Assembly (NCBI GenBank): GCA_013216135.1
Contig: JABSOS010000004.1
Span: 79,939 to 143,938, forward strand
Source: Candidatus Caenarcanales bacterium
GTDB lineage: Bacteria > Cyanobacteriota > Vampirovibrionia > LMEP-6097
Direction of reading: 5' to 3'
DNA length: 64,000 nt
Part shown: positions 2,980 to 58,864 of the stretch, one piece after another
Position numbering within the stretch: the stretch's first letter is position 1
Layout of the letters: each line of letters starts with the position of its first letter
Program-made: the position numbers and the translations under genes
The notes under the pieces: model-generated
The model's database searches: none
Seen by the model: the letters and a program-made list of their open reading frames with translations, nothing else
Told to the model about the DNA's origin: nothing

Positions 2980-3568
2980 TAGGTATTCTGTTAATGATAA
3001 GTATACTTATCAAGATTCTGATGTATTAATTAATAGACTTAATATTAAGGATGCTCAGGCTTTGGAAGAAGCCGAATTTCGCTACTCTACTATTCGATCT
3101 GTTGAGCTAACTGAAAAATTTTTAAAGGTTCCATTTAATACTTATATTTTAAAAGATATTCATAAAAAGCTATTTAGTGATGTCTATGATTGGGCAGGTG
3201 AATATAGAACTGTTGATATATCCAAAGGTAATTCTCGCTTTTGTAATATGAATTTTATTGAATCTGAATTAGAGAGGGTTTATAAGGAAATAAAAAGTTT
3301 AAATTATCTTCAAAATCTAGATCAAAAAGAATTTAGTGAGCAAGTAGCGTATTTTATAGGTGAAATAAATGCTATTCACCCTTTTAGGGAAGGTAATGGA
3401 AGGACTCAGCGAGAGTTTATAAATCAGTTAGCTCTTAATTCTAATTATTACGTTAATTGGCATGATTGTTTGGTTGAAGATATACTGGAAGCCACTATCA
3501 AGAGCTTTGCTCAAGAATATGGTATGTTAAGTCAGTTGATTTTTGATAACTTAATTTTATTTGATTAG
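2972..3568 (+). CDS. fic: Fic-family protein (AMPylator/Doc-like toxin)
   Basis: Canonical Fic motif HPFREGNGRTQRE at about aa 145; 198 aa. Confidence 0.85.
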   Translation: MSNRYSVNDKYTYQDSDVLINRLNIKDAQALEEAEFRYSTIRSVELTEKFLKVPFNTYILKDIHKKLFSDVYDWAGEYRTVDISKGNSRFCNMNFIESELERVYKEIKSLNYLQNLDQKEFSEQVAYFIGEINAIHPFREGNGRTQREFINQLALNSNYYVNWHDCLVEDILEATIKSFAQEYGMLSQLIFDNLILFD

Positions 3569-3597
3569 GTTTTTAAAGTTATATATCTAAATGGAAC

Positions 3598-3642
3598 CTG
3601 TTAATCGATCGGTCACTGGTTCGAATCCAGTCTTGGGAGCCA
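3598..3642 (+). tRNA. tRNA-Asn(GTT) 3'-half fragment (anticodon loop CTGTTAA through T-arm, acceptor 3' strand and CCA); no 5' half, so att-site copy
   Basis: ctgttaa tcgat cggtc ACTGG TTCGAAT CCAGT CTTGGGA G CCA. Perfect T-arm and a GTT anticodon with U33/A37. No complementary acceptor strand TCCCAAG upstream. Near-identical copy at 25703-25752. Confidence 0.6.
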
Positions 3643-3737
3643 TTAAAAGAAAGCCCTGGTCGATTGATTGGGGCTTTTTTGTTTTTAAGGCTTTTAGTCA
3701 TTTTCAAAATATACCGTTAACACTATTAACACTAACT
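3635..3737 (+). repeat. About 100-bp direct repeat (tRNA 3' tip + terminator-like hairpin + flank), copy 1 of 2; partner 29521-29620
   Basis: gggagccattaaaagaaagccctgRtcgattgattggggcttttttgtttttaaggcttt, then catttYcaRcaaatatWccgtWaacaYtatWaacaYta, about 85% identical overall. Contains a GCCC..GGGC stem plus T-tract. Confidence 0.65.
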
Positions 3738-8187: not shown

Positions 8188-9594
8188 ATGACTGAGAATT
8201 CAATAACCATAGATGAGCAAGATATTGAATTATTTAACAGTGTATTTTCTAAGGAAAATTTAGAAAATACTTTTAAAAATAAGAAGAGCATATATTCAAA
8301 ACAATCATCTGGAATTGATAGAAAAAGCATTGAAAATTTTGAGAAAGAAACAAAAAATATTTTCCCAAAAATTTTAGAGAAAATAAAGGGTTCTGATTAT
8401 TATTTTTCCCCATATGTAGAAAGTTTATTTTTAAGAGGCCCAGATAAGCAACCACGAAGAATTTCTTTACCTACAATTCGAGATAAATTAACTCTAGACT
8501 TGGTTCGGCAATATTTAAATAAAAAGCTTGGTCAATCAGTAAAGAGGACTTTACCAAATATTTATATAAAGGAAATAAAAAAATTCTTTGAAGATAAGGA
8601 TACGAAATCTCTTAAATATAAAAGAATTGACATTTCAAGTTTTTATAAAAGTATCAATCACATAATTCTTTTGAACTTTCTTAGAAATATTAAAGTTCAT
8701 GATTCTGTTTATACTTTAATTAGAAGAGCTATAAAAACAAATACTTACAACAAATCAGTTTATTTAAGGAAAGACAAGGAAAATAACAATAAAGGTTTAC
8801 CAGAGGGACTTTCCATTTCAAATGTATTGGCTGAGTATTATTTACGTGAGATTGGTTTGATACCTATTCCTCAAGGTGTTTTATACCAACGCTACGTGGA
8901 TGATATTTTGATCTTGTATCAAGACGAACATGCTTTTCAGTCTTTCTATAATAAAATTGAAAGGAAATTCAAGAAACTTGATCTAAATATTTCGAAAGAT
9001 GAAGATAAGACGGGAGAGGGGAATCTTTCTAGTGATAAGGGCTTCAATTTTCTTGGTTATGATTTTAAAAAAGGTAAAATCTATGCAAAGCGAAGATCAC
9101 AGGTAAAGCTTATTAATACAATAATTAAATTGTTTACACAGTATAAGTATAGTACACAAAAAAATGAGTTGAAGAACCGAATATTGATAGAAGATGTTAA
9201 TGAAAAGCTTACTGGCGCTATGTCTGAAAGTATAAAGTATGGTTGGATATTTTTTTTCCGTGAAATAACTGATATTAACTTTTTGTACCAAGTTGATATT
9301 CTTGTGGAAAAGCTTCTTGATAGATATAAGCTTAGTGTTTCTAGTGAAGTGAAAAAAATAAAACAAATCTCAAAAGCTTATTATAAATTGAAAAAAAATG
9401 ACTATAGCTACTGTCATAATTATGATGCATATTCGACATTTTCAGATAAAATAAACTATCTTTCAGGAAGAGTAAAGGAATCTAGAGAAGATTTAAAAAC
9501 TAAGACATTTGAATATATTGATAGTCTATTTAAAGAGGTACGCAATAGAAATTTGAGTAATTTAGAAAAGGATAATGGGGTAGAATCATACTAG
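8188..9594 (+). CDS. Reverse transcriptase (RVT_1; retron/Abi/defense-associated-like, no endonuclease or maturase extension recognised)
   Basis: RT motifs: RRISLPTIRDKLTLDLV (1-2), LPEGLSISNVLAEYYL (4), YQRYVDDILIL (5, YVDD), KLDLNISKDEDKT (6), FNFLGYDF (7). Thumb-like KYGWIFFF. Confidence 0.85.
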   Translation: MTENSITIDEQDIELFNSVFSKENLENTFKNKKSIYSKQSSGIDRKSIENFEKETKNIFPKILEKIKGSDYYFSPYVESLFLRGPDKQPRRISLPTIRDKLTLDLVRQYLNKKLGQSVKRTLPNIYIKEIKKFFEDKDTKSLKYKRIDISSFYKSINHIILLNFLRNIKVHDSVYTLIRRAIKTNTYNKSVYLRKDKENNNKGLPEGLSISNVLAEYYLREIGLIPIPQGVLYQRYVDDILILYQDEHAFQSFYNKIERKFKKLDLNISKDEDKTGEGNLSSDKGFNFLGYDFKKGKIYAKRRSQVKLINTIIKLFTQYKYSTQKNELKNRILIEDVNEKLTGAMSESIKYGWIFFFREITDINFLYQVDILVEKLLDRYKLSVSSEVKKIKQISKAYYKLKKNDYSYCHNYDAYSTFSDKINYLSGRVKESREDLKTKTFEYIDSLFKEVRNRNLSNLEKDNGVESY

Positions 9595-9727
9595 AGTGCC
9601 TTCCTGTAAAATGGAACCAGTGTATTTTATTATACAAAGGGATATTGTTATTTTTGTGCTAGACACTACGAACCATATTCTTATCTAAGCAATATGGGAA
9701 CATCATTAAAAGTGGGCACTCAGATTT
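9594..9727 (+). ncRNA. Candidate structured non-coding element between RT1 and the TM protein, flanked by a 7-bp inverted repeat gagtgcc/ggcactc
   Basis: IR at 9594-9600 and 9715-9721 encloses about 114 nt. Reminiscent of the a1/a2 repeats that flank retron msr-msd, but in an atypical position (downstream of the RT). Confidence 0.2.
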
Positions 9728-10357
9728 ATGTTTAAAGCTATAAAGTCGGAAGTAGAGGATTTTCAAAGAAGAGTTAAAATTACACGTGGAGCCAGATATA
9801 ATGCTTTCAGAAGAAATGAAGCTAAAAGTATTTATTCTTCCTGTACTTTGATATTTTTATCAATATTTATTTTTGCTCTTAATTTACTTCCTTACTATAA
9901 TTTTTTGAATATTGATTTGTTAAAGGATAAGAACTCAAGTATTCAGTTTTCGGCACTAATACTTTCTGTTTTCTTGTTGGTTTTTTCTCTTCTAGAAGCC
10001 AATAATAGTTATAAGTATAATGCAGATAAATTTCATGGTTTTGCTATAGGTCTAGAAAATATTGTAAATGAATTAGATCGATGTTCTTCTGAAAATCAGT
10101 TAGAAAGAATAAAAACAGAGTATGTCGACCAGTTGGAAAAATCTTTTTTGAATCATTTAGAAATTGACTATTTGATTTCATCAGCAAGATACTACACACC
10201 AAGTAGTGATAGTAAATGTTTAGATAAAGTCCTTTATTGGTTGAAAATCATCATTTATGGTACGCGTAATTTTGTTTTTACTTTATTGCCCTATTTATTA
10301 CTTATCTCCCTGTCAGTATATTATGTTGCTTACTGTCAACTTAATATCATTAATTAA
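9728..10357 (+). CDS. Integral membrane protein (about 4 TM), possible effector of the RT cassette
   Basis: 209 aa. Hydrophobic segments IFLSIFIFALNLL, ALILSVFLLVFSLL, FVFTLLPYLLLISLSVYYVAY. Confidence 0.5.
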   Translation: MFKAIKSEVEDFQRRVKITRGARYNAFRRNEAKSIYSSCTLIFLSIFIFALNLLPYYNFLNIDLLKDKNSSIQFSALILSVFLLVFSLLEANNSYKYNADKFHGFAIGLENIVNELDRCSSENQLERIKTEYVDQLEKSFLNHLEIDYLISSARYYTPSSDSKCLDKVLYWLKIIIYGTRNFVFTLLPYLLLISLSVYYVAYCQLNIIN

Positions 10358-11071: not shown

Positions 11072-11893
11072 TTGAAAATAACTCCTAATAAATTATATTC
11101 AAATTATCTAGTAGTATACTTTGACGTACTAGGTTGGAAAGATTTAACTTTAAATAGCCCGCTTGCCTGCAGTTTTGTGTCTAACCGGATTAATGGTCTT
11201 AGATATAAATTAAAATCGAGAAGTATCTTTAGTCGTGAAAAAGTAATATCATTCTTCTTCTCTGATTCCGTAATACTAACCCTTGAGCTTCCAATGGATA
11301 ATGAAAATAATTTAGAAAAACAAAAAATAATATTTTATCAAATTGCAGAATTGCAGTCAGAATTGTTTGAAAATTGGGGAGTGTTATTAAGAGGATTTAT
11401 CACTATTGGAGAATGTTTTATAGATCCTTTTGAACATGTTTGTTTTGGACCAGCAATTAATAAATCAGTATTGAAAGAGAAACTTATTTGTTTTCCAAAA
11501 ATAGTTTTAGATAAGGATCATTTTCCAGATAAGCTGATGGTTAATAATTCTAGGCAAAATTCTGTCCAAATTAATAGAAAAGATTCTTGGTGGAACAAAA
11601 AAGCACATAGAGGTGAATGTTATGAAGAATTTAAAGAAATTCAAGAATCTTTCTTCCTTGATTATATTAAGGTTCAAAAAAACTCATTAGATCGTTACGT
11701 TGGAGGATTCAATCAAGTCAACAACTTTCGTACATCCTTTAGAAGTAAATTAAATAAACAAATCACAAATGATGTGACAATGCAAAATGAGAAATTAAGC
11801 TTGAAATATATCTGGCTCACAAAATATTACGACAAGTGTTTTAGAAAAAATTCTTTTCATTTAGATTATAAAAATTTCACTAAATCCAATTAA
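11072..11893 (+). CDS. Class III nucleotidyl cyclase-like (CHD / palm fold) protein, tentative
   Basis: VVYFDVLGW resembles the cyclase FADIVGFT metal-binding motif. FFFSDSVILTL resembles the GD second-metal motif. LLRGFITIGECF ... FGPAINKSVLKE resembles RIGIHTG ... GDTVNxASRME. TTG start. Confidence 0.35.
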   Translation: MKITPNKLYSNYLVVYFDVLGWKDLTLNSPLACSFVSNRINGLRYKLKSRSIFSREKVISFFFSDSVILTLELPMDNENNLEKQKIIFYQIAELQSELFENWGVLLRGFITIGECFIDPFEHVCFGPAINKSVLKEKLICFPKIVLDKDHFPDKLMVNNSRQNSVQINRKDSWWNKKAHRGECYEEFKEIQESFFLDYIKVQKNSLDRYVGGFNQVNNFRTSFRSKLNKQITNDVTMQNEKLSLKYIWLTKYYDKCFRKNSFHLDYKNFTKSN

Positions 11894-11969
11894 TGATTTA
11901 TGTTGAACTTTTAATCAACCGTAAGTAATTACGTCTTGAATTACTTTCTAATGCTATTTTAATATATTA

Positions 11970-14900
11970 ATGTTTAGTGATAGCTATTTTTTAGAATTAC
12001 AATTTGAAAATAGGGTGTATAGTCTAAACTCTTATGAATTTCAGAAATTTTTTGAAGATATTATGCTAAAAAAATTTCCTGGACATTTTCAAAGAGTTAG
12101 ACCATATGGAAATAAAGGTGATGGTGGTAATGACGGTTTCATGAAAGAGGATGGGAAGTATTTTCAATCCTACGCACCTTTAAAAGTCAATGAAGACAAA
12201 GAAAAAGAAGCTATACAAAAGTTTAGAGATGACTTTCAAAAACTCTTATCAAGTGAATGGGGCAATTTTTCTAAAATTAAAGAATATTACTTTGTTTATA
12301 ACGATAAATTTTATGGCACTACTATCGAATTTGAGAAAGAACTTCACGTTTACCAAGAGGGTTACCCACAAATAAAATTTTATTTATTAGGAACAGATCA
12401 ACTTAAATCCATATTCAAAGAATTAAGTGAAGATGATTATAAAAGTCTAAATTTTAATACAGATAAATCAGCTTCTCATCTTATTGTAGAAGCATACCTT
12501 AATAATATTGAGAATCAAATAAAATTAAACAATGTTCATATTGCTGAAAATGCACTAGACTTATTAGACCAAATCCTTAATTCTGAGGAATTAAAAAAAA
12601 ATTCACAATATATTGATCTCTATATTAAGAACTCTGTCATGAAGTATAAGTATTTTTTACTAAAAGAGAGATTTCAAAATGCTATTGACACCTTAGAAAA
12701 ACTAACTGCAAGATATCCTGAACGTTGTGAACCACTTTTACATCTGGCTGATTATTACTGTAGCCAGGATGAGATAAACTTAGCTTCAAGCTTATATGAA
12801 AAAGCAACAACAAAAATAAATTTTGGTGATTATTGGCTTAATAAATATGTTCCAATATATATCAAAATTAAAAGTAATTTGTCCTTTGTTGAAGATGATT
12901 TTGTCTTATTGAGAAGCTTGAATGATAATCAAAGAGCATGTTTCTATAGATTATTTTCTATGTATTACTTAAATAAAGATATAGAAAAATCTCTTGAATA
13001 TATAGATAAAGCTATAGAGTTTGACCCAAAAAATCTCTCTTTTATTCTAACTAAACTCAATATATACAAAGCTCAGTTAGTGAATAACTATTCTGAAAAA
13101 CTGTATAGGCTTGAATTTGTAGATAATATGGAAAAAGTTATTATCTATATTGATGAATCTTTTTCTTTCATATCCGTTAGAAGTAAATTACTTTTACAGA
13201 TGAATAAACTCTGTATTCTCTGGTGTCAAGAGAAAATACAAAGCTGTATTCTGTTACTTGAAGGTATTTCAGAGTTACTGGTTGAATGTGATTTTAATAA
13301 AGGAATCGATTCTGTAATCTGTGAGCTATTAACTTCAGTTGTAACTCCAGACCTATTTGAAGTTATTCTTGATTATTGCCTAGATAATAAATCCAAACAA
13401 TTTTCTGATTTATTACTAAAATTAATTTTCAATCATGCGCTAAGGGATCAAAAATTAAAACAACAAGCTCAAGTTTTTTTTGAATCAATTTCAGCCAATC
13501 AGGGCTCTAAATATATAAAACTAATGAGCTTTATTAACTCTGGAGATGAAGAAGAATTTATTAAAATTGTTAGTGCTGACACTAATTTTCTTCTAATGCT
13601 GGCAGAAACATTAAAGATAAATCCTGAATTTAGGAAAAAAATAATTTTTCATTTGAGAGACTCTAATAATGAATATTCAAATATACTTTATACAATATTT
13701 TTATTTGATATTGGTGAAGATAAAGAGGCTTTTGAGTATTTAAAAAAAATTGATTTGAGAAACATAACAGTTCCCCAATATGATCCTTTACTCAGAGTTG
13801 CTTTGAAAAATGAAGCTTGGGATTTGGCTGAAATAATAATAGTGCAAATAATTGATAAAGAAGAAAATGATAAATATCGATATTTTTTAAATACACAGTT
13901 ATTAAACTGCTATGTTCATTTAGGAAAGCACCTTGAAGCAACAAAAGTTGGAAAAGCCTTATTAAAGTCGGAACAATTTAATAGTTCTGATACTGAAAAA
14001 ATTTTAGAGCTGTTACTATATTCTTACCTCAAACTGAGTCAACATTCTAATAGATATAAAAATGAGGTAAAAGAAATATATTATAGTTATCGTGAATATA
14101 ATTTTTCTTTGAATTTTCTTTTAAATATTGCTAGTTTTGTTCATGCATATCTTGGTACAGGTGATGACCTTGTAAGTTTAATAGTCAGATCTATATCCAA
14201 ATTAAATAAAAATCCAAATCCACTGGAGTATGCTCAAATATTTACGGTTCTAACTTTAAAAAACCAAGTCAAAATTGATATTGAGTCTAGTAAGAAAACT
14301 GTTACTGAAGATTCATTTGTGAAAATTATAGAAGATGATGACTGGTACTATATTGGTAACGGAAATTGTTTATGTGCTATTCCTCTTCAAGAAACACAAA
14401 CTAAATACCATCAACTATTCAATGCCTCTTTAGGTGACAAAAATATTGAAAAGATATTTGATTTAAGGCAATTTTTATACTATAAAGCTAGGGAAATATT
14501 TAATAAACAAATAGAAAAAGATAATTTGGACAATATGAAGAAATTCAACTTACTGGATTCTTCGGGTAATATTGATATAAATAGATTTAAAGATACAATA
14601 GCTGAGTTACAAAACTCTGAATCTACATTTTTTGATAAATATTCTGAAAATACATATCCATTAGCTATGCTTGCTTTATTTGAAGGAGGTTTAATACCTT
14701 CAATTGCAAAGATTCAGAGAGAAAATAAAGGCTACATTCACTCAAGTGATGGAAGTATTAATGAAATTGAAAGACAAAGCTCGCTTATTAAAGAGTTGAT
14801 TAAAGCTAAGTCTGAGCTTTACATTGATACAACATCAATTCTTTTCTTAAGTGAGGTGGGTATTTTTAACCACTTTATTAATTTATTTTCAAAGTACAAA

Positions 14901-15788
14901 ATAGTTCAGTCATCAATTAATTTTTTGTCTGACACTTTAGACACCTATAAATATAGGAAGGGAACATTGGGAACTGCAAGTGTCATAAATAATGAGCTTG
15001 TTTACTTACCTTTCAATAAAGCTCGAAAGAAGCAAATTCAAAAATTTGAGAAAAGGTTACTTGAATCAATTAAGTTTCTCAATAAGGATCTCAACAGGAT
15101 TGATTCATTATCAAAAGCTTCAAAGTCTTCTGTTCCTTCTGAACAGAGAATACCACCAGAACTCTGTGATGGAGCGATTATGGCTAAGAAAAATAAATTG
15201 CCAATTATGACAGATGACTATGTTTACCTTCACTGGAACGCTCTTGAGACAAACTTAGAACCACCTCAATATTTTTCATCTATAGCTTTTTTAGAGTATT
15301 TGTATGAGCAAAAAATAATAAATTTTGAAGAATACTTGGATTGCTTTTATTATTTCTCTTCATATAGATTTAGGTTTATGAGTATCAATAAACAGATTTT
15401 GTATAAAACTATATTTGGTGATGATCTTATAGTGTTGGTTAATCCAGGTAACATAAGGAAACTTAACCTTCATTTGATTTTATCAAGAGACTATGGTGTT
15501 TCACTTCAAAATTGTTTTAGATTAATTGGTGAGTTTGTTTATGATTTAGTAAAAAACAAATCAATAATATTTAGTGTACTGAATGATGTTTTAATCAGTT
15601 TATTAAATTATCTACCACTTGAATATAAATCCATCTTGTCTTATAAAATGATTGTTGACTATTGTACAAAGAGATACGAAGCTGAAAAAAAAGAAAGAAC
15701 AATTATTGACTTGAAAAATGACTTTCTAGAGAAGAGGTTAAGTCAATTACAAGATGTGTGTGGTTTAACCACTCTCTTGAAATTTTAG
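11970..15788 (+). CDS. 1272-aa protein: N-terminal Mrr-like PD-(D/E)xK nuclease motif + long alpha-helical/TPR-like repeat region; no Walker A
   Basis: YGNKGDGGNDGF ... YFQSYAPLKV resembles the Mrr_cat GxDGGxDG signature. The rest is predicted helical repeats. No GxxxxGK[ST]. Confidence 0.6.
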   Translation: MFSDSYFLELQFENRVYSLNSYEFQKFFEDIMLKKFPGHFQRVRPYGNKGDGGNDGFMKEDGKYFQSYAPLKVNEDKEKEAIQKFRDDFQKLLSSEWGNFSKIKEYYFVYNDKFYGTTIEFEKELHVYQEGYPQIKFYLLGTDQLKSIFKELSEDDYKSLNFNTDKSASHLIVEAYLNNIENQIKLNNVHIAENALDLLDQILNSEELKKNSQYIDLYIKNSVMKYKYFLLKERFQNAIDTLEKLTARYPERCEPLLHLADYYCSQDEINLASSLYEKATTKINFGDYWLNKYVPIYIKIKSNLSFVEDDFVLLRSLNDNQRACFYRLFSMYYLNKDIEKSLEYIDKAIEFDPKNLSFILTKLNIYKAQLVNNYSEKLYRLEFVDNMEKVIIYIDESFSFISVRSKLLLQMNKLCILWCQEKIQSCILLLEGISELLVECDFNKGIDSVICELLTSVVTPDLFEVILDYCLDNKSKQFSDLLLKLIFNHALRDQKLKQQAQVFFESISANQGSKYIKLMSFINSGDEEEFIKIVSADTNFLLMLAETLKINPEFRKKIIFHLRDSNNEYSNILYTIFLFDIGEDKEAFEYLKKIDLRNITVPQYDPLLRVALKNEAWDLAEIIIVQIIDKEENDKYRYFLNTQLLNCYVHLGKHLEATKVGKALLKSEQFNSSDTEKILELLLYSYLKLSQHSNRYKNEVKEIYYSYREYNFSLNFLLNIASFVHAYLGTGDDLVSLIVRSISKLNKNPNPLEYAQIFTVLTLKNQVKIDIESSKKTVTEDSFVKIIEDDDWYYIGNGNCLCAIPLQETQTKYHQLFNASLGDKNIEKIFDLRQFLYYKAREIFNKQIEKDNLDNMKKFNLLDSSGNIDINRFKDTIAELQNSESTFFDKYSENTYPLAMLALFEGGLIPSIAKIQRENKGYIHSSDGSINEIERQSSLIKELIKAKSELYIDTTSILFLSEVGIFNHFINLFSKYKIVQSSINFLSDTLDTYKYRKGTLGTASVINNELVYLPFNKARKKQIQKFEKRLLESIKFLNKDLNRIDSLSKASKSSVPSEQRIPPELCDGAIMAKKNKLPIMTDDYVYLHWNALETNLEPPQYFSSIAFLEYLYEQKIINFEEYLDCFYYFSSYRFRFMSINKQILYKTIFGDDLIVLVNPGNIRKLNLHLILSRDYGVSLQNCFRLIGEFVYDLVKNKSIIFSVLNDVLISLLNYLPLEYKSILSYKMIVDYCTKRYEAEKKERTIIDLKNDFLEKRLSQLQDVCGLTTLLKF

Positions 15789-16010: not shown

Positions 16011-16517
16011 ATGAGATCAGTCTTATTTATAATTCTCACATTATTTGTTTTTGCTGGAGGTTATTATGCTGGTAAAAATTCCAAGAATCTAGAATTTACT
16101 GATTCAAAGCCAGAGCTTTTTGTTAAAGCTGAAACAAAGATGGAAAGTTATCAAAACACCTATCTAAAACCTCTAAGGGTAATTGATGGTGACACCATAG
16201 AATTTGAAATAGTTAATCTCCCATATCCAGAAATCTCTATTCTAAAGCTTAGAATCTTCGGAGTTGATACTCCTGAAAAGTCATGGCGTACAAAATGTGA
16301 ACAAGAGAAAAATCTAGCAAACCTAGCTTCATCTTTTACAGAAGACTTATTTAATAAAGCAGATCATAAAGAGATAAAGCTTATGAAGTGGGGTAAATAC
16401 GGTGGTAGGGTTTTAGGTGATATTTATTTAGATGGTAAATCTTTAAAAGAAGAGCTTTTAAGTAAAGGGTTAGCTAAAGAATACTTTGGTAAGGAAAAGG
16501 TATCTTGGTGTGAATAA
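16011..16517 (+). CDS. Secreted/membrane-anchored thermonuclease (staphylococcal nuclease, SNase family)
   Basis: N-terminal hydrophobic anchor. VIDGDTIEF, RIFGVDTPEK, KYGGRVLGDIY match the SNase Ca-binding and catalytic motifs. Confidence 0.8.
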   Translation: MRSVLFIILTLFVFAGGYYAGKNSKNLEFTDSKPELFVKAETKMESYQNTYLKPLRVIDGDTIEFEIVNLPYPEISILKLRIFGVDTPEKSWRTKCEQEKNLANLASSFTEDLFNKADHKEIKLMKWGKYGGRVLGDIYLDGKSLKEELLSKGLAKEYFGKEKVSWCE

Positions 16518-16519
16518 TG

Positions 16520-16545
16520 AATTTCTATCCCTCGGGATAGAAATT
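16520..16545. repeat. 26-bp perfect palindrome aatttctatccCTCGggatagaaatt (P5)
   Basis: Variant arm type (ttctatcc). Starts 3 nt after the nuclease stop. Confidence 0.8.
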
Positions 16546-16827
16546 AAGGTGCTATAAAAACCAAAATAAGTTAAAATTTCTTTGGGGTATATAGCACTAT
16601 ACCTCGGGGCTTCAAAACCTCTCAATCAGCAGTCGATAGAGATATACGACTGTTTAAATACGATATCTCCTGGCTAAAAGCTTCCTCTTTAGCCGGGAGA
16701 CTCTATTATGTCCAAAGCCTTTTGGCTTAAAAATAGAGTGGTCGTCTGATTGCGATTTTTGAACTCCCGGCTATATATTATTTATTTAATACATAGCTAA
16801 TCTAACAAAAAATAAAGGGAGATTAGT

Positions 16828-17994
16828 GTGCAAAACTCAGATAAGCAAGAGAATATCTTATATAAACTAGCGAAGCTCGCTTCAGGACCAAATATATTAC
16901 TAGTATCTAGTGTCTACTACTACATAGCTTTTAAATATTTAAGCTATTTTGAAGAGAGCGATGCTTTTAGAATTCTCACTTGTCTAATTTTAATCAGTAT
17001 CGCAACCATGATTTATGAGGCAGCGACAAATAAAGATCCTAAAGTTGTCTGTAATAGATTCGCCTGGTCTAATTTAGAAAAAACACTTGCTTATGCATTA
17101 ATTATCTGGGCTTTGTTTTGGGGATATGGGTTTATAGATAGAGTAATAAATCCAACTGAAAAAATTCCAGTCGAGATTAAAGAAGAAGAGCAAAGTAATG
17201 ATACTCAGAACTCAGTAAAACAAGAAGAGGATAAAATCGAAGAAAAACAGTGGGACTCTAATGAGCCTGTTAGTTTTGAAAACTTACTTGCAGAAAATAC
17301 AGAAGAAGGTGTTTTAGTTACCGGGGAAACAAATTTACCTGATGGAGCAATTTTAAGAGTAGGTCTAGAATTAAAATCTAACTGGAAAATTAGTACTCAT
17401 AATTCTGTAAAAATTGAAGATGGGAAATTTGAGGCTTTGCTTTGTTCATACCAGCCTTGTAGGTCTGGTCTATATATAGTTTCGGTATTACTCCCTATGC
17501 AACATGATGCAGAAATCGTTGAGATTCTAGGTAGGCTAAATAAAAAAATTAGGGGAGATTTAGTCAAAGGTAATGATGGTGATCTAAAAACTGCGAAGAA
17601 AGAATTTGATTTCCAGCTTAATAACTCAGCAGAGGATACTAAGCTGAAAGCAAAAAGACAGCTTGCAAGTGACTTATTAAATAAATATCAAAACTTATAT
17701 AATGAATTGATCTCTTTTAAAAATCAACCTAGCTTTCATAGACTTGGCTTTAGTCAAGGTTCTACCTATGCTAGTTGGAAAGCAAGAGTCGGAGAATTAG
17801 AACAAGAATTTAGAGATTCTGATATTTTTGTGCCTGGGAAAAAACCTATTATTGTTCAGCCAAGTACCTTAAAGGTTTTAGGTAATTCCTATATGAGAAG
17901 TCGGGGGCAAGAAACTTCGAATACTCTTCATAATCGTCACTTGTTTGAAGAACTCTTCGACGATAAGGGGAATATACTAAATCAGTTTTACTAA
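16828..17994 (+). CDS. Membrane-anchored hypothetical protein (2-3 N-terminal TM, large soluble C-terminal domain)
   Basis: 388-aa ORF. No family recognised. Confidence 0.5.
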   Translation: MQNSDKQENILYKLAKLASGPNILLVSSVYYYIAFKYLSYFEESDAFRILTCLILISIATMIYEAATNKDPKVVCNRFAWSNLEKTLAYALIIWALFWGYGFIDRVINPTEKIPVEIKEEEQSNDTQNSVKQEEDKIEEKQWDSNEPVSFENLLAENTEEGVLVTGETNLPDGAILRVGLELKSNWKISTHNSVKIEDGKFEALLCSYQPCRSGLYIVSVLLPMQHDAEIVEILGRLNKKIRGDLVKGNDGDLKTAKKEFDFQLNNSAEDTKLKAKRQLASDLLNKYQNLYNELISFKNQPSFHRLGFSQGSTYASWKARVGELEQEFRDSDIFVPGKKPIIVQPSTLKVLGNSYMRSRGQETSNTLHNRHLFEELFDDKGNILNQFY

Positions 17995-28391: not shown

Positions 28392-28454
28392 CTTATCTAA
28401 TGTGGTTTTACCTTTTATGTGCAAAAGTCTACTAAAGCAAAAGGATGAAGTAAA

Positions 28455-29402
28455 ATGATAAATATTCAGGAATGTATGAAAGAAATTCATAATATCGACA
28501 CAAGCTCAATTCTAGAACGAATCCACTTTGAGATTATTGTGGCAGTAGAGGAGTTGGGTACAGTAACATCCGCTGCAAAGAAATTACATCTTAGCCAGTC
28601 AGCCCTAAGTCACAGTATGCGAAAACTTGAAAAATCACTGGGCTTAGAAATCTGGCAGAGACAGGGTCGTAGACTTGTTCTAACACAGGCAGGAGAATAT
28701 TTATTAGCAGTTGCTGAGCGCTCCCTCACACAGTTTAATCATGCTGAAGAGCGCCTTCGATTATTTGCCCAAGGGCAGAAGGGGATTCTTAGAGTCGGTA
28801 TGGAATGTCACCCTTGTTATCAATGGCTATTAAAGGTTGTGGCACCTTATTTAATATCATGGCCTTCTGTAGATATTGATATAAAACAAAAATTTCAATT
28901 TGGAGGGATAGGAGCACTGTTCGGTTACGAGATAGATATGCTTGTTACACCAGATCCTCTTTTTAAAAAGAAGTTGCTATTTGAGCCTGTGTTTGATTAC
29001 GAACAAGTGCTTGTGGTAGGGAAGTCGCATGAACTATATCAAGCAGATTTTATTAATCCAGAGGATTTATCACAAGAAATAGTGATCACTTATCCAGTGT
29101 CAATCGATAGATTAGATATATTCTCACAGTTCATGACTCCAGCCGGAATATACCCAAAAGAGCATAAGGTGATTGAAAATACCGATATCATGCTTCAGAT
29201 GGTTGAGAGTGGAAGAGGCGTGGCTGCTCTACCACGCTGGTTAGTTGAAGAGAGTTCTAAACACTTTCAAGTAGCTCCAGTAGCTCTTGGATCTAAAGGA
29301 ATTCAAAAACAAATATACCTAGGGATTCGTGAGGATGAAGTTAACATTGATTACATTAGTGCATTTCTTCAACTAGCTCGTGAACAGTGCTATGTTAAAT
29401 AA
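28455..29402 (+). CDS. metR: LysR-family transcriptional regulator, MetR-like
   Basis: N-terminal HTH (VTSAAKKLHLSQSALSHSMRKLE) and LysR substrate-binding domain. Divergent from metE across a 63-bp spacer. Confidence 0.75.
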   Translation: MINIQECMKEIHNIDTSSILERIHFEIIVAVEELGTVTSAAKKLHLSQSALSHSMRKLEKSLGLEIWQRQGRRLVLTQAGEYLLAVAERSLTQFNHAEERLRLFAQGQKGILRVGMECHPCYQWLLKVVAPYLISWPSVDIDIKQKFQFGGIGALFGYEIDMLVTPDPLFKKKLLFEPVFDYEQVLVVGKSHELYQADFINPEDLSQEIVITYPVSIDRLDIFSQFMTPAGIYPKEHKVIENTDIMLQMVESGRGVAALPRWLVEESSKHFQVAPVALGSKGIQKQIYLGIREDEVNIDYISAFLQLAREQCYVK

Positions 29403-56347: not shown

Positions 56348-57477
56348 TATGAATTCTTTAATTTAACTCTTTGTCCGGGTACTAATTTATGAGTGCCATG
56401 CTTTACGATAAGATCTCCATTCTTGATAGGTCCTTTTACGTAAGCACCTGTATCGCTGAGGTGAATTATTTCGACTGGAAGATTTGTAATTTGATATTGA
56501 GTATCATCTTCACTGTTTAATTTCATAAGATTCCACAATCCTCTCACCCCTTGTGATAAAGCTTCTTGTGGGATGTAAAACACATCATCAAGAACTGATT
56601 TGCTGAGTTTCAGATAGACAAACTCTCCTTCACTAAACTCTATCTTTGGATTTAAACCGAAGACTGCTGTTACTGTTCTTTGACTGGGATCTAGATTTGG
56701 TAAAAATGAATTTAAGCGAGCTTCGAAGTTTTGATTTTCTAAACTAAAATTGTAAATTCCACCTTGTTTGAAAATGAGTTTTTGATTAGATGGGATGCCG
56801 ACTCTGATTTCAGGTTGATTGTTTTCAAAAATTGAAATTACTGGTGTTCCTGGATTAATAATCGCTCCATCATCTAAGACTTTGTTACTAAGCTTGCCGC
56901 TAAAAGGAGCAACGATATACGCTTTGCTGATATCACTATCAATAATATCTATTTGTGCATTTAGACTATCTAATTCAGAAAACTTGGATTGATAGTTAAA
57001 GTTACTCTCATCGTATTCCTGTCTTGAAATTGCACCTTGAGCTTCAAGTTTTTTTGCTCTATCCTTAGTGACTTTAAGTAGTTTCATTTGGTATTCCACT
57101 TGATTCTTTTGAGCAATTATTTTTCTTCTTTGCGCTTCTAATTTTTCAGTATTTAAAGCTGCAATTGTAGTTCCCTTATTAACAAAATCACCATCGTCGT
57201 AATAAAATTCTGCTATAGTTCCAGCAAGCTCAAAGCTTAAATCTGTTTTACGTTTTGAGTAGACTCTACCGGGGTAACTAAATTCGATAGGATATGAGCT
57301 TTGCTCTTTTAACTCTAGTCCTTCAATTATTTCTAAGTTCCTATCCGTTTCAACTTTCCTTCCTTTGAAGAAAAATACCCCTACGAGTAGTGGGATTAGA
57401 AGGATTATTGCGATTAATTTAATAAATTTGTTTTTCATGGGTTTATCATACCGTTTAGTATGGTATATAATTATCAT
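56347..57477 (-). CDS. RND efflux periplasmic adaptor (membrane fusion protein)
   Basis: N-terminal TM, then coiled-coil, lipoyl and beta-barrel signature. Precedes the pump gene. Confidence 0.8.
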   Translation of the reverse strand: MIIIYHTKRYDKPMKNKFIKLIAIILLIPLLVGVFFFKGRKVETDRNLEIIEGLELKEQSSYPIEFSYPGRVYSKRKTDLSFELAGTIAEFYYDDGDFVNKGTTIAALNTEKLEAQRRKIIAQKNQVEYQMKLLKVTKDRAKKLEAQGAISRQEYDESNFNYQSKFSELDSLNAQIDIIDSDISKAYIVAPFSGKLSNKVLDDGAIINPGTPVISIFENNQPEIRVGIPSNQKLIFKQGGIYNFSLENQNFEARLNSFLPNLDPSQRTVTAVFGLNPKIEFSEGEFVYLKLSKSVLDDVFYIPQEALSQGVRGLWNLMKLNSEDDTQYQITNLPVEIIHLSDTGAYVKGPIKNGDLIVKHGTHKLVPGQRVKLKNS

Positions 57478-57487
57478 ACCACTTAGT

Positions 57488-58864
57488 ATGAATTTTAAAC
57501 TCCTAAATTTAAGAATCTTCCAAGTCGTTTTGATTTTATGCTTTTTTACTGTAAATTCAGCTATAGCTAGTGAATTTGATATGGCTAATGCTGATAAAGA
57601 GGTAATAGGCTTAACTTATATTCTTGAAAGGTCTATAGAAAGAAACCTTGAGTTAATAATTAAAGATTTAGATACAGATACTGCTAAATGGGACTTTATT
57701 GAAGAGTTTTCAAATGCTTTACCCGATATTAAATTAACTGCCACTAAGCAAGATTTAGATGGAACCTTTTTCTTGAATCCTCAGTTTCAGGGTAATATCG
57801 ATACCACTCAAGCAAATTTTACTTTAGGTATAAGTTATAGAGCTTTTAATGGTGGACAGACCACTTTTGCGATTATGGCTGATAATTATTTCCGTAAAGC
57901 TGCTAAAGAAGATTACCGCAGGCAATATAACCAAGTAGTCTTTGATTCGATTAAACTTTTTAATAACTTAATTCAAAACCAATCAGCTTTAATTAGTAAA
58001 AGTAAAACTGTAGATGAAGCTACTTTGAATTTGAAATTAGCAGAAGATAAATTAGAAGTAGGTGAAGGTACTCTATATGAGGTTTTACTTGCTAAGTCTA
58101 GACTTGCTATAACTAAGCAAGATTTGATGGATCAAAAAGCGAGGCTAAGAGTGGTGCAGATTGACCTTGCAAGACATTTAAACCTACCTTTAGACTCTCC
58201 ATTATTTGCAGATAAAGACCGCTTGAATAACTTTCATATAATTAATGACGATCTCAGCCCTGAAAACCTTATAGAAATTAGTTATGAAAATAACCCAGAG
58301 ATTAAAATGGCACTGGATCAAAAGAAAGCTATTCTTAGACAAGAGCTTGCTAGCTATGGACGTTTCTTACCAGCATTAGACTTATATGCAAACATTGCGG
58401 CTAATGGAACGGAATTTGATGATTTGAATCAATTAAATACTATCGGTTTCCAGCTATCCTATGAATTTGGGGAGAACTCAGGTTTAAGCTCTGTTTCTTC
58501 CATTAGGAAAGCAAAGATAGAAACTAAAAAAGCAAAAATTAGATTAGAAGATACGACTAAAGAAATAGAAGCTAGGTTGAGAAGGTCATATGTAGAGTAT
58601 AAGAGAACTGAAGCTAATATTGATACTGCTAAAGCTAGTTTAGATGCTGCAAATGAAGCTCTGAAGCTTTCTAAGTTACGCTATGAAAATGGTAGAGAGA
58701 TCTTAAAAGATCTTATCGATAATGAATCGAAGCAAAGTATTGCTGAAATTAGCCTGATTGATAGTATAGCTTTGCATAATATCGCTCAGGCTAATTTAGC
58801 ATTTGATTTAGGTAACTTTTCTGTTGAGAATATTGTTGGGACTAACTTTAAAGAAAGTCATTAA
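57488..58864 (+). CDS. Outer membrane efflux protein (TolC-like OMF)
   Basis: Signal peptide MNFKLLNLRIFQVVLILCFFTVNSAIA and two OEP repeats. Start set at 57488; the track ORF start at 57365 would overlap the adaptor gene. Confidence 0.7.
   Translation: MNFKLLNLRIFQVVLILCFFTVNSAIASEFDMANADKEVIGLTYILERSIERNLELIIKDLDTDTAKWDFIEEFSNALPDIKLTATKQDLDGTFFLNPQFQGNIDTTQANFTLGISYRAFNGGQTTFAIMADNYFRKAAKEDYRRQYNQVVFDSIKLFNNLIQNQSALISKSKTVDEATLNLKLAEDKLEVGEGTLYEVLLAKSRLAITKQDLMDQKARLRVVQIDLARHLNLPLDSPLFADKDRLNNFHIINDDLSPENLIEISYENNPEIKMALDQKKAILRQELASYGRFLPALDLYANIAANGTEFDDLNQLNTIGFQLSYEFGENSGLSSVSSIRKAKIETKKAKIRLEDTTKEIEARLRRSYVEYKRTEANIDTAKASLDAANEALKLSKLRYENGREILKDLIDNESKQSIAEISLIDSIALHNIAQANLAFDLGNFSVENIVGTNFKESH

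What the first reader, a model, noticed from the sequence alone, without database searches (positions are those of the whole stretch)
16550..16827. Highly structured 270-bp non-coding leader upstream of the 388-aa membrane protein
Seen: between palindrome P5 and the 16828 start codon there are nested long-range inverted repeats. AGCCGGGAG (16691-16699) pairs with CTCCCGGCT (16765-16773). Inside them ACTCTATT pairs with AATAGAGT, and AAGCC-TTTT-GGCTT forms an apical hairpin. There is an asymmetric internal loop of about 25 nt. A separate hairpin CAGTCG..CGACTG lies at 16630-16652. GC content is higher than in the surrounding DNA. Inference: possibly a cis-regulatory RNA (riboswitch-like or thermosensor), an sRNA, or a template ncRNA associated with the neighbouring RT systems.
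Basis: seen in the sequence. Interest (0 to 1): 0.5.

Follow-up and report, generated by a model that had tools for sequence, protein, structure and literature searches.

The report
Phage-style antisense RNA control cassette
The structured stretch is a real, conserved small-RNA cassette of the kind phages and mobile elements use to control a neighbouring gene by RNA-RNA base-pairing; this copy is an uncatalogued variant in an unusual bacterial group, so it is moderately interesting, not revolutionary.

Summary
The region folds far better than shuffles (z -9.1). Its core, 16691-16772 on the + strand, is a three-way-junction RNA.

The core is a weak, sub-threshold match to Rfam sRNA-Xcc1 (34 bits, cut-off 53). 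A covariance model built from 16 viral sequences, without the window, hits it at 69.8 bits (E 7e-13). It therefore belongs to an uncurated sister subclass, marked by AUGUCCAR / YAAAR in the P2 internal loop.

Across 54 relatives, the P3 loop and the junction strand are complementary to sites upstream, and this complementarity covaries. In many relatives they also match sites at the downstream ribosome-binding site. Phage P4's CI RNA (Rfam C4), with its seqA/IsrK-like and seqC sites, has the same layout.

Its downstream site is only weak.

Best reading: a C4/CI-like antisense control cassette in front of an orphan membrane protein, inside a defence island of a Caenarcaniphilales genome. It is not a riboswitch, a thermosensor or an RT template. 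The mechanism is inferred, not shown.

The parts
16548..16598 (+). 5' hairpin (GGUGCUAUA...UAUAGCACU) just before module 1. It is possibly the start of the unit, or it holds the -10 box (TATATA 16588-93). Whether it belongs to the cassette is uncertain.
   Evidence: It is paired in the MFE fold. Closest relatives also carry a small hairpin just before hairpin 1; this was read by eye. No promoter was found by the scan.
16606..16621 (+). Module 1, hairpin 1: GGGG / CCUC stem with loop CUUCAAAA. UUCAAAA 16611-16617 is the exact complement of the junction strand UUUUGAA 16757-16763.
   Evidence: CTCGGGGCTTCAAAACCTCT is identical over 20 nt to locus L135 (alignment A4). Family-wide covariation of this loop with the junction: 7.33 against 5.60 +/- 0.18 in permutations.
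16623..16629 (+). Module 1, site 1: CAAUCAG, the exact complement of the P3 loop CUGAUUG 16746-16752. It is the counterpart of seqA of phage P4.
   Evidence: The duplex of 16606-16652 with 16740-16766 is -21.0 kcal/mol, and 1% of shuffles do as well. Family-wide: 7.39 against 5.25 +/- 0.14.
16630..16652 (+). Module 1, hairpin 2: CAGUCG-11 nt-CGACUG, followed by UUUAAA. It sits where relatives have a hairpin, which in many is a full intrinsic terminator.
16667..16675 (+). Anti-P1 element CUCCUGGCU. It can pair with the 5' strand of P1 (AGCCGGGAG 16691-99) in place of the 3' strand.
   Evidence: It is paired this way in the MFE folds of the long transcript. Relatives have a pyrimidine-rich CUUYCCG element at the same place. 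The partner is invariant, so covariation cannot be tested.
16691..16772 (+). Three-way-junction RNA, the class-2 relative of sRNA-Xcc1. P1 is 16691-99/16764-72. P2a is 16700-07/16732-39. The P2 internal loop is AUGUCCA 16708-14 and AAA 16729-31. P2b is 16715-19/16724-28 with loop UUUU. P3 is 16740-45/16752-57 with loop CUGAUU. The junction J3/1 is UUUGAA 16758-63.
   Evidence: Model R1, built without the window, gives 69.8 bits and E 6.8e-13; it is the only hit in 64 kb and every modelled pair is standard. Rfam RF02221 gives 34.2 bits, below its cut-off of 53. The MFE of the isolated RNA equals this structure. Covariation across 38 sequences: 96.8% of cells paired, and 213 compensatory cells against 62 in shuffles.
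16806..16847 (+). Possible but weak downstream target region around the ribosome-binding site. It contains CAAAAA 16806-11, SD AAGGGAG 16815-21, GAUUAG 16821-26, the GUG start at 16828, and CAAAA-C-UCAGA 16831-41.
   Evidence: The best duplex with 16740-16766 is -14.1 kcal/mol at 16818-16847, and 12% of shuffles do as well, so it is not significant. The longest exact complements are only 5 and 6 nt.
16828..17994 (+). Downstream gene: a 388-aa orphan membrane protein. It has N-terminal helices, an Ig/FN3-like beta-sandwich and a C-terminal helical bundle. It is the presumed cargo of the cassette.
   Evidence: in the word-index search it matches only itself; that record is named as from a Candidatus Caenarcaniphilales MAG. 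One search gives remote homologues of residues 150-380 only. Searches find no Pfam family. Searches give a model with pLDDT 81 and only generic beta-sandwich matches.

Best explanation
Window 16606-16772 is one conserved two-part RNA cassette.

- The 5' part, module 1, has a small hairpin whose loop is UUCAAAA, then the 7-nt site CAAUCAG, then a second hairpin.
- The 3' part is an 82-nt three-way-junction RNA. Its two exposed elements, the P3 loop CUGAUUG and the junction strand UUUUGAA, are the exact complements of those two module-1 elements.

The junction RNA belongs to an uncurated sister subclass of Rfam sRNA-Xcc1.

The cassette has the same layout as the immunity region of satellite phage P4: a seqA/IsrK-like leader, the CI RNA of the C4 family, then seqC at the next gene's ribosome-binding site.

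Proposed mechanism, by analogy. Transcription starts just upstream of module 1 and runs through the junction RNA into the 388-aa gene. The junction RNA, once released or folded, pairs with module 1 of nascent transcripts. Where a downstream copy of the target exists, it pairs with that too. This pairing lowers read-through and/or translation. The result is tight, self-limiting expression of the cargo gene, addressed by a private, hypervariable 'code'.

Shown here: the structure, family membership, covariation within the RNA, covariation between the RNA and its flanking sites, and the identical layout in P4.

Inferred: that pairing happens in vivo, that it causes termination or translational block, that the RNA is processed, and that the 388-aa gene is the regulated target.
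For: (1) The fold is far beyond chance: z -9.1, -6.5 and -4.75.

(2) Model R1, built from 16 viral sequences without the window, hits 16692-16771 at 69.8 bits, E 6.8e-13. This lies in the middle of the class-2 range of 50-91 bits.

(3) Covariation of P2a, P2b and P3 on a 38-sequence alignment fitted to the model: 96.8% of cells paired, and a covariation score of 0.612 against 0.04-0.16 for slid controls.

(4) Across 54 relatives, the P3 loop and the junction strand each have complements in the flanks that are specific to their own locus. The longest complement was compared with 1000 permutations.
- P3 loop, upstream: 7.39 against 5.25 +/- 0.14.
- Junction strand, upstream: 7.33 against 5.60 +/- 0.18.
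- P3 loop, downstream: 6.13 against 5.03 +/- 0.14.
- Junction strand, downstream: 6.0 against 4.78 +/- 0.18.
Clear swaps are seen, such as UUUAGAG with CUCUAAA and UUUCAAC with UUGAAA.

(5) The window has both upstream elements as exact 7-mers, in the family's order and spacing. The duplex is -21 kcal/mol.

(6) In P4, Rfam finds C4 (the CI RNA) as a junction of the same topology, with isrK upstream. The P3-loop complement UUCACAGG lies at -144 and at +35, the latter over the SD. The junction complement GUGAGAA lies at -160 and +4.

(7) PMC4825925 states that the P4 CI RNA is processed from an untranslated transcript. It causes termination by pairing with seqA upstream and seqC downstream. IsrK is described there as a structural homologue of seqA RNA.

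(8) In many relatives the downstream gene starts 35-60 nt after P1, and the target overlaps its SD. Many of these genes resemble phage antirepressors, judged by eye from their N-terminal sequences; no domain search was run on them.
Against: - The window lacks a convincing downstream target. The best duplex is -14.1 kcal/mol, and 12% of shuffles do as well.
- 14 of the 15 closest relatives lack the downstream target too. So control of the 388-aa gene by pairing at its RBS is not supported.
- 13-14 of the 15 closest relatives have a hairpin with a U-rich tail right after P1, and 13 have RCCA there. The window has neither. Homology therefore stops at the 3' end of P1, and the link to the ORF could be a recombination accident.
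- No promoter could be placed upstream of module 1. A sigma-70-like match, TTGCGA-18-TATATT at 16750-16779, could give the ORF its own promoter.
- In the full-length leader the predicted MFE form is not the junction but a module-1:junction duplex.
- Neither C4 nor isrK models hit the window, even at E up to 10.
- There are no expression data.
Confidence: 0.6

Rival explanations
1. It is a stand-alone trans-acting small RNA, as was proposed for sRNA-Xcc1 in Xanthomonas. Its targets lie elsewhere in the genome or in invading phages. The 388-aa gene merely lies next to it and is expressed from its own promoter.
For: - The founding member is a discrete 88-nt RNA with mapped ends (PMC2996969).
- The closest relatives end in a terminator-like hairpin and lack a downstream target.
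- A promoter-like match at 16750-16779 could drive the ORF separately.
- One further exact bipartite target-like match lies at 57972-57986.
Against: - The only significant complement in the window is the cassette's own module 1.
- The 57972 match lies inside a coding region, and about 0.05 such matches are expected by chance.
- The window copy has no terminator between P1 and the ORF, which starts 55 nt after P1.
- In 32 of 54 relatives the target is the adjacent gene's RBS.
Confidence: 0.2
2. It is a decaying remnant. The cassette arrived with a mobile element and lost its 3' end (RCCA, terminator, downstream target). It no longer does anything for the neighbouring gene.
For: - Homology with relatives ends exactly at P1.
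- The downstream target is missing.
- The host, which is AT-rich, is far from the proteobacterial hosts of all the other genome hits.
Against: - Every modelled base pair is intact, and all invariant positions are kept.
- Both 7-nt upstream targets are still exact complements.
- GC is held at 0.46 in a 0.3 background.
- These points together argue for continued selection or very recent arrival.
Confidence: 0.12
3. It is a riboswitch or thermosensor: a ligand- or temperature-sensing leader that controls the membrane protein.
For: - It has a three-way junction with invariant internal-loop bases (AUGUCCAR / YAAAR) whose role is unexplained.
- An alternative pairing of P1 with CUCCUGGCU exists.
- A weak hairpin overlaps the SD.
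Against: - Downstream genes across the family share no function.
- The most variable parts covary with flanking RNA sites, which a ligand pocket would not do.
- No Rfam riboswitch model hits the region.
Confidence: 0.04
4. It is a template or scaffold ncRNA for one of the reverse transcriptases of the island (DRT UG17 at 8188-9594, or the RT at 20749-22020).
For: Two RT systems lie in the same island.
Against: - The RTs are 6 kb and 4 kb away, with other genes between.
- No RT homologue occurs in any of the 54 related loci.
- The family is found in phages next to antirepressor-like genes.
Confidence: 0.02
5. It is a DNA-level site, such as an integron attC-like or integrase recombination site, or a REP-type palindrome, and not an RNA.
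For: - Members of the family occur in integron cassettes.
- Two integrases lie nearby.
Against: - Three of the six P3 pairs are G-U and exist only on the + strand RNA.
- The model score is 69.8 bits on + and 12.9 on -.
- Compensatory changes include G-U intermediates.
- The element is not at an island boundary.
Confidence: 0.02

Closest known systems
sRNA-Xcc1 (Rfam RF02221). It is an 88-nt sRNA of Xanthomonas campestris. It is found in integron cassettes upstream of symE, in APSE phages upstream of an ORF6N protein, and in Stx phages.
   Same: - Same three-way-junction topology.
- Same invariant P1 (GCCGGG...CCCGGC).
- Same junction strand UUUYGAR.
- The P3 loop is of the same type: CGUCUGAUUGCG is identical in the window and in viral locus L100.
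- Same flanking modules with complementary sites.
   Different: - The P2 internal loop is AUGUCCAR / YAAAR instead of AAUACAAN / GGAAUA.
- The window scores 34.2 bits against a cut-off of 53.
- None of 14 class-2 loci reaches the cut-off, while class-1 loci score 68-82 bits.
- Conversely, my class-2 model gives class-1 loci only 27-34 bits.
- In the papers I could search, sRNA-Xcc1 is treated as a trans-acting virulence sRNA. None describes it as a C4-like cis cassette.
C4 antisense RNA family (Rfam RF01695), which holds the CI RNA of satellite phage P4 and c4 of phages P1/P7. It comes with the upstream seqA/IsrK module (RF01394).
   Same: - Same order of helices: P1, P2, P3, then a single-stranded junction.
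- The P3 loop and the junction strand are each complementary to one site upstream and one downstream.
- The downstream site overlaps the SD of the next gene.
- The upstream site lies in a small structured leader with a terminator.
All of this was shown for P4 with the same script. PMC4825925 describes CI pairing with seqA and seqC to terminate transcription. PMC8198154 describes the c4-icd-ant operon of P1. PMC5499578 lists CI and C4 as RNase P substrates.
   Different: - No detectable sequence or model similarity: C4, c4-2 and isrK do not hit the window at E up to 10, nor 16 related loci at gathering score.
- P1 is 9 bp instead of 17.
- P2 has a conserved internal loop.
- The window lacks the downstream site and the RCCA tail.
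- The cargo is a membrane protein, not an antirepressor or a replication operon.
The IsrK / STnc1160 locus of the Salmonella Gifsy-1 prophage.
   Same: - The leader RNA terminates early to give a short RNA, or reads through.
- The read-through transcript folds into an inactive form in which the leader pairs with about 30 nt further downstream (PMC4825925).
- This parallels the predicted module-1:junction duplex in the window's long transcript.
   Different: - In Gifsy-1 the short leader RNA activates translation in trans.
- For the window, no short form, no terminator after hairpin 2 and no small upstream ORF are evident.
- The isrK model does not hit the window.

Membership tests
sRNA-Xcc1 (Rfam RF02221) | Score at or above the curated gathering cut-off (53 bits) | tested here: not met
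   34.2 bits. E is 3.9e-4 on 701 nt and 0.036 on the whole window. There is no hit at gathering threshold.
sRNA-Xcc1 (Rfam RF02221) | Three-way junction: a 9-bp P1 (GCCGG...CCGGC), a P2 with an internal loop, a P3 hairpin, and the junction UUUUGA | tested here: met
   The full-length alignment to the model, positions 1-87, has all helices in place. The MFE of the isolated RNA gives the same structure.
sRNA-Xcc1 (Rfam RF02221) | Conserved P2 internal-loop sequence AAUACAAnA...GGGGAAUA | tested here: not met
   The window has AUGUCCAA ... UAAAAA, as do all class-2 members.
sRNA-Xcc1 (Rfam RF02221) | Discrete RNA of about 88 nt, with 5' and 3' ends at the base of P1 | not testable with these tools
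   Known for X. campestris only (PMC2996969). There are no expression data for this genome.
Class-2 'AUGUCCAR' sister subclass (defined here, model R1) | Significant score with a model built without the window | tested here: met
   69.8 bits, E 6.8e-13. It is the only + strand hit in the window, and the score lies within the range of the other 31 members.
Class-2 'AUGUCCAR' sister subclass (defined here, model R1) | An upstream module whose hairpin loop is complementary to the junction strand and whose adjacent site is complementary to the P3 loop | tested here: met
   UUCAAAA 16611-17 and CAAUCAG 16623-29 are both exact 7-mers. 47 of 54 relatives have both elements upstream.
Class-2 'AUGUCCAR' sister subclass (defined here, model R1) | A downstream copy of the bipartite target at the RBS of the next gene | tested here: inconclusive
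   The window has 5- and 6-nt matches only, and its duplex is not better than shuffles. The downstream target is present in 32 of 54 relatives, but in only 1 of the 15 closest.
C4 antisense RNA (Rfam RF01695; P4 CI, P1/P7 c4) | Match to the covariance model | tested here: not met
   No C4, c4-2 or isrK match in 16300-17000 at E up to 10. The same models find P4's CI RNA at 74.9 bits and isrK at 60.8 bits.
C4 antisense RNA (Rfam RF01695; P4 CI, P1/P7 c4) | Antisense elements complementary to sites both upstream and downstream on the same transcript | tested here: inconclusive
   Upstream: met. Downstream: weak. The P4 layout was verified with the same method.
C4 antisense RNA (Rfam RF01695; P4 CI, P1/P7 c4) | Released from a longer transcript by RNase P, through an acceptor-like stem followed by RCCA | not testable with these tools
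   13 of the 15 closest relatives have N-R-CCA right after P1. The window has AUAUAUU. Cleavage itself needs an experiment.
Riboswitch | A conserved aptamer linked to genes of one pathway or function | tested here: not met
   The downstream genes are unrelated to one another. They include genes with antirepressor-like N-termini (read by eye), lipoprotein-like and pilin-like genes, small proteins and the orphan here. No riboswitch model hits the region.
Retron / DRT reverse-transcriptase ncRNA | Encoded next to its RT and conserved together with it | tested here: not met
   The nearest RTs are 4-6 kb away. No RT is found by tblastn in the 54 related loci.

The most novel reading that the evidence does not exclude
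sRNA-Xcc1-type RNAs, both the curated class and the uncurated class found here, may not be ordinary trans-acting virulence sRNAs. They may be a large, cross-phylum branch of C4/CI-like 'immunity' RNAs. Each cassette would carry a private, hypervariable address: the P3 loop plus the junction strand, paired with its own leader and often with the next gene's RBS. The cassette would serve as a portable, self-limiting expression switch for toxic or defence cargo. It would have spread from phages into integrons, proteobacterial chromosomes and even a non-photosynthetic cyanobacterial relative (Caenarcaniphilales).
Probability: 0.35. Interest if true: 0.6.

Novelty: new variant of a known kind. Interest (0 to 1): 0.45.

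Why it matters
The result matters in four ways.

- It gives a concrete, testable function to a structured leader that looked anonymous.
- It shows that a widely annotated Rfam family (sRNA-Xcc1) has an uncurated sister class that the curated model misses.
- It shows that both classes share the architecture of the P4 CI / P1 c4 immunity RNAs. That changes how hundreds of 'sRNA-Xcc1' annotations in phages, integrons and plant pathogens should be read. None of the papers I could search makes this link, but most of the older literature is not in that library.
- For the window, it suggests that the orphan membrane protein in this defence island is kept under tight RNA-based control, as toxic cargo usually is.

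The covarying address pairs are also a natural set of orthogonal RNA-RNA interactions.

Tried and rejected
- BLAST of the leader against plasmids found nothing.
- Homologues of the 388-aa protein were meant to provide homologous loci. The word-index search found only the protein itself. The exhaustive search found only remote C-terminal relatives with no named domain. The covariation test therefore had to be anchored on the RNA and not on the gene.
- MAFFT plus RNAalifold on class-1 sequences gave a poor consensus because the helices were misaligned. I replaced it with a hand-written structure and a covariance model.
- I looked for a second, trans target in the 64-kb window. Only one extra exact match turned up, inside a TolC-like gene, and it is compatible with chance.
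- I looked for a downstream RBS target in the window with duplex energies. The result was not significant.
- The promoter scan found no + strand promoter upstream of module 1.
- I checked whether module 1 is an isrK or c4-a1b1 family member. It gave no hit in the window or in L088, even at permissive thresholds.
- RT association was rejected.
- The structure prediction of the 388-aa protein gave a confident model but only generic Ig/FN3-like matches. The afdb50 library was not available.
- The papers by Chen et al. 2011 and Hartmann et al. 1995 could not be read. The details of P1 c4 (a1/b1, a2/b2) rest on my own recollection; the 3'-CCA detail does too, apart from the base-pairing of substrate 3' ends with RNase P's L15 loop mentioned in PMC5499578.
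Full report
**1. The observation**

- AGCCGGGAG 16691-99 pairs with CTCCCGGCT. The latter lies at 16764-72, one base to the left of the stated coordinates.
- ACTCTATT 16700-07 pairs with AATAGAGT 16732-39.
- AAGCC-TTTT-GGCTT lies at 16715-28.
- The hairpin CAGTCG/CGACTG lies at 16630-52.

The intergenic 313 nt fold at -106.8 kcal/mol, against -64.2 +/- 4.7 for shuffles (z -9.1). The opposite strand folds less well (z -6.8). The 83-nt core alone folds into a single dominant structure at -33.5 kcal/mol (z -4.75).

That structure is a three-way junction. Half of the P3 pairs are G-U, so the structure exists only in + strand RNA.

**2. What the core is**

At curated thresholds Rfam finds nothing in the whole window. 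With permissive thresholds the only notable match is sRNA-Xcc1 (RF02221), over its full length at 16691-16780. It scores 34.2 bits against a cut-off of 53.

I scanned viral contigs with a loose pattern of the invariant bases. This recovered about 25 classical sRNA-Xcc1 members, together with a few sequences that share the window's peculiar P2 internal loop, AUGUCCAA...UAAAA. A second scan for that loop gave 16 loci.

A covariance model built from those 16 loci, without the window, hits the window at 16692-16771. The score is 69.8 bits, E 6.8e-13, and every modelled pair is standard. There is no other + strand hit in 64 kb.

The two classes barely see each other.
- The class-2 model gives other class-2 loci 50-91 bits and classical members only 27-34 bits.
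- RF02221 gives classical members 68-82 bits, but none of 14 class-2 loci reaches its cut-off.

The window's RNA is therefore a clear member of an uncurated sister class of sRNA-Xcc1. On the alignment of 38 sequences fitted to the model, 96.8% of cells pair. Compensatory cells number 213, against 62 +/- 7 in shuffles. The covariation score is 0.612, against 0.04-0.16 when partners are slid. An alignment fitted to a model leans towards that model's structure. However, the MAFFT alignment already gave 86.5% paired cells and a score of 0.431 against 0.07-0.16.

**3. The surroundings belong to it**

I printed the flanks of all members side by side. This showed that the P3 loop has a complement of 6-10 nt upstream of the RNA, 15-100 nt away and mostly 45-100. 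In most members there is a second complement 30-45 nt downstream, directly in front of or over the Shine-Dalgarno sequence of the next gene.

Each of these sites is preceded by a small hairpin whose loop (YUCRAAA) is the complement of the junction strand J3/1 (UUUYGAR). Both complementarities are locus-specific. For 54 members, with the window excluded, I compared the mean longest complement in the true flanks with the value when flanks are exchanged between members (1000 permutations; earlier versions).

| Element | Flank | Observed | Permuted |
|---|---|---|---|
| P3 loop | upstream | 7.39 | 5.25 +/- 0.14 |
| P3 loop | downstream | 6.13 | 5.03 +/- 0.14 |
| Junction strand | upstream | 7.33 | 5.60 +/- 0.18 |
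| Junction strand | downstream | 6.0 | 4.78 +/- 0.18 |

Individual swaps are obvious: UUUAGAG with CUCUAAA, UUUCAAC with UUGAAA, and UUUCGAC with GUCGAAA.

The window has the complete upstream module.
- Hairpin GGGG-CUUCAAAA-CCUC lies at 16606-21.
- The site CAAUCAG lies at 16623-29.

The two recognition elements are exact 7-mers. The predicted duplex with 16740-66 is -21.0 kcal/mol, reached by 1% of shuffles.

**4. Closest relatives**

A strict, window-like pattern found 15 loci in species-representative genomes. All are Proteobacteria or relatives, with locus GC of 0.38-0.64:
- Rickettsiales, Micavibrio, Hyphomicrobiales and Bdellovibrionales MAGs;
- Sorlinia.

Their module 1 is nearly identical to the window's; 20 nt are shared with L135. 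Each has its own site, matched by its own P3 loop. One Rickettsiales MAG has four cassettes with four different addresses.

In this subgroup both upstream elements are present in 13 of 15 loci, but a downstream target in only 1 of 15. Instead, 13-14 of the 15 have a hairpin with a U-rich tail immediately after P1, and 13 have N-R-CCA there.

The window has none of these. After P1 comes AUAUAUUAUUU, and then 55 nt further on the GUG of the 388-aa ORF. The best downstream duplex in the window, at 16818-47 across the SD and start codon, is -14.1 kcal/mol. Twelve percent of shuffles match it, so it is not evidence.

**5. How it most likely works**

The layout is a target copy in a structured leader, then a junction RNA, then a second target copy at the next RBS. 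This is the layout of the immunity region of satellite phage P4.

I fetched P4. Rfam places C4 (the CI RNA) at 8420-8507 on the - strand, with the same helix order: P1, P2, P3 with a large loop, then a single-stranded junction. It places isrK 110 nt upstream. My script finds the P3-loop complement UUCACAGG at -144, inside the isrK-type module, and at +35 as UUCACAGGAGG. It finds the junction complement GUGAGAA at -160 and +4.

According to PMC4825925:
- the CI RNA is processed from an untranslated primary transcript;
- it causes premature termination by pairing with seqA and seqC, upstream and downstream of itself;
- IsrK is a structural homologue of seqA RNA.

In the Gifsy-1 locus the read-through transcript is locked in an inactive fold, in which the leader pairs with about 30 nt further downstream. 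The window's long transcript is predicted to do the same. At -64.7 kcal/mol (z -6.5), module 1 pairs with the 3' half of the junction RNA, and CUCCUGGCU (16667-75) pairs with the 5' strand of P1.

CI and c4 are RNase P substrates (PMC5499578). In phage P1, c4 sits in an operon with icd and ant and is needed to keep the antirepressor off (PMC8198154). The a1/b1 and a2/b2 nomenclature for P1 is from my own memory of Citron and Schuster 1990.

My reading is that the window's cassette is a C4/CI-like self-addressed antisense switch. Structure, membership and covariation are shown. Pairing in vivo, termination or translational block, processing, and the 388-aa gene being the target are all inferred.

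**6. Context**

The cassette lies in a genomic island that contains the following:
- a DRT-type RT (UG17) with a SLATT effector, 8188-10357;
- a 1272-aa TPR/PIN-like protein;
- a staphylococcal-type nuclease, 16011-16517;
- a tyrosine integrase, 18693-19709;
- a SIR2-like protein overlapping a second RT, 19742-22020;
- a DUF3800 protein;
- a second integrase, 24477-25682, abutting metE.

There is no tRNA in the window.

The word-index search finds only the 388-aa protein itself, in a record named as from a Candidatus Caenarcaniphilales MAG. The exhaustive search finds only remote relatives of its C-terminal 230 residues. Its model (pLDDT 81) shows N-terminal helices, a disordered linker, an Ig/FN3-like sandwich and a helical bundle. 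It has no informative structural neighbour.

In the viral relatives, many downstream genes resemble phage antirepressors (Rha-, Bro-N- or AntA-like N-termini). I read this by eye from the translations; no domain search was run on them. In Stx phages the classical cassette lies in the early region, under a short ORF annotated antB. In the chromosomal relatives the cargo is diverse and often membrane or secreted proteins.

**7. Rivals**

- A purely trans-acting sRNA, with the ORF expressed from the promoter-like match at 16750-79, cannot be excluded.
- A recently acquired remnant that has lost its 3' part cannot be excluded either.
- Riboswitch, thermosensor, RT template and DNA-site readings each fail a test they should pass.

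**8. Novelty**

The family (sRNA-Xcc1) and the mechanism type (C4/CI) are known. Three things are not in Rfam or in the papers I could search:
- the sister class itself;
- the recognition that sRNA-Xcc1-type cassettes share the C4/CI layout;
- their presence outside Proteobacteria.

I rate it a new variant of a known kind, of moderate interest.

Noticed in passing
window 57972-57986 (+): TTCAAAACCAATCAG is an exact match to both recognition targets of the junction RNA, with a 1-nt spacer. It lies inside the TolC/OEP-like ORF 57365-58864. About 0.05 such matches are expected by chance in the window, so it is probably coincidence.
   Followed up: partly
window 8188-10357 (+): A reverse transcriptase that best matches PADLOC RT_UG17 (E 1e-106), followed by a SLATT_5 two-TM effector. 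This is a DRT-type defence pair.
   Followed up: partly
window 19742-22020 (+): A 337-aa protein with a weak SIR2-like match overlaps by 7 nt the start of a 423-aa reverse transcriptase that has no clear UG or retron class. It may be an unclassified SIR2+RT defence pair, sitting just after an integrase (18693-19709).
   Followed up: no
window 11072-15788 (+): A 273-aa protein with no family match is followed by a 1272-aa protein with weak TPR and PIN (PIN-TPR-GreABC) matches. There is no PADLOC hit.
   Followed up: no
window 23654-25682 (-) and 26043-28490 (-): A DUF3800 protein and a second tyrosine integrase abut metE. This is the likely right-hand end of the island. No tRNA gene occurs anywhere in the window.
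   Followed up: partly
window 25865-25930 (-) and 3566-3684 (+): Two Rfam matches fall below their cut-offs: fluoride riboswitch at 19.9 bits (cut-off 34), upstream of the integrase, and SpF41 sRNA at 32 bits (cut-off 52). Both are probably chance.
   Followed up: no
L140, L141, L147, L148 (one Rickettsiales MAG, CAZJFC01); L100:6541-7696: One genome carries four class-2 cassettes, each with a different P3-loop/site pair. One viral contig carries two classical copies 1 kb apart. This fits the idea of private, non-cross-reacting addresses.
   Followed up: partly
L135-L149, first 5 nt after P1: 13 of the 15 closest relatives have N-R-CCA directly after the P1 stem, like the 3' end of a tRNA acceptor arm. 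The P4 CI RNA ends in ...GCCA. This hints at RNase P processing. The window copy lacks it.
   Followed up: partly
window 16636-16641 vs 16733-16738: The loop of hairpin 2 contains AUAGAG, the same sequence as the 3' strand of P2a. It could therefore compete for the P2a 5' strand. In this AT-rich DNA that may be chance.
   Followed up: no
L150 (Escherichia phage P13374) 2558-2704: The 48-aa CDS annotated 'antirepressor antB' lies under the BLAST match to the classical sRNA-Xcc1-type cassette (match 2501-2712 of the locus). It may be a mis-called ORF.
   Followed up: no
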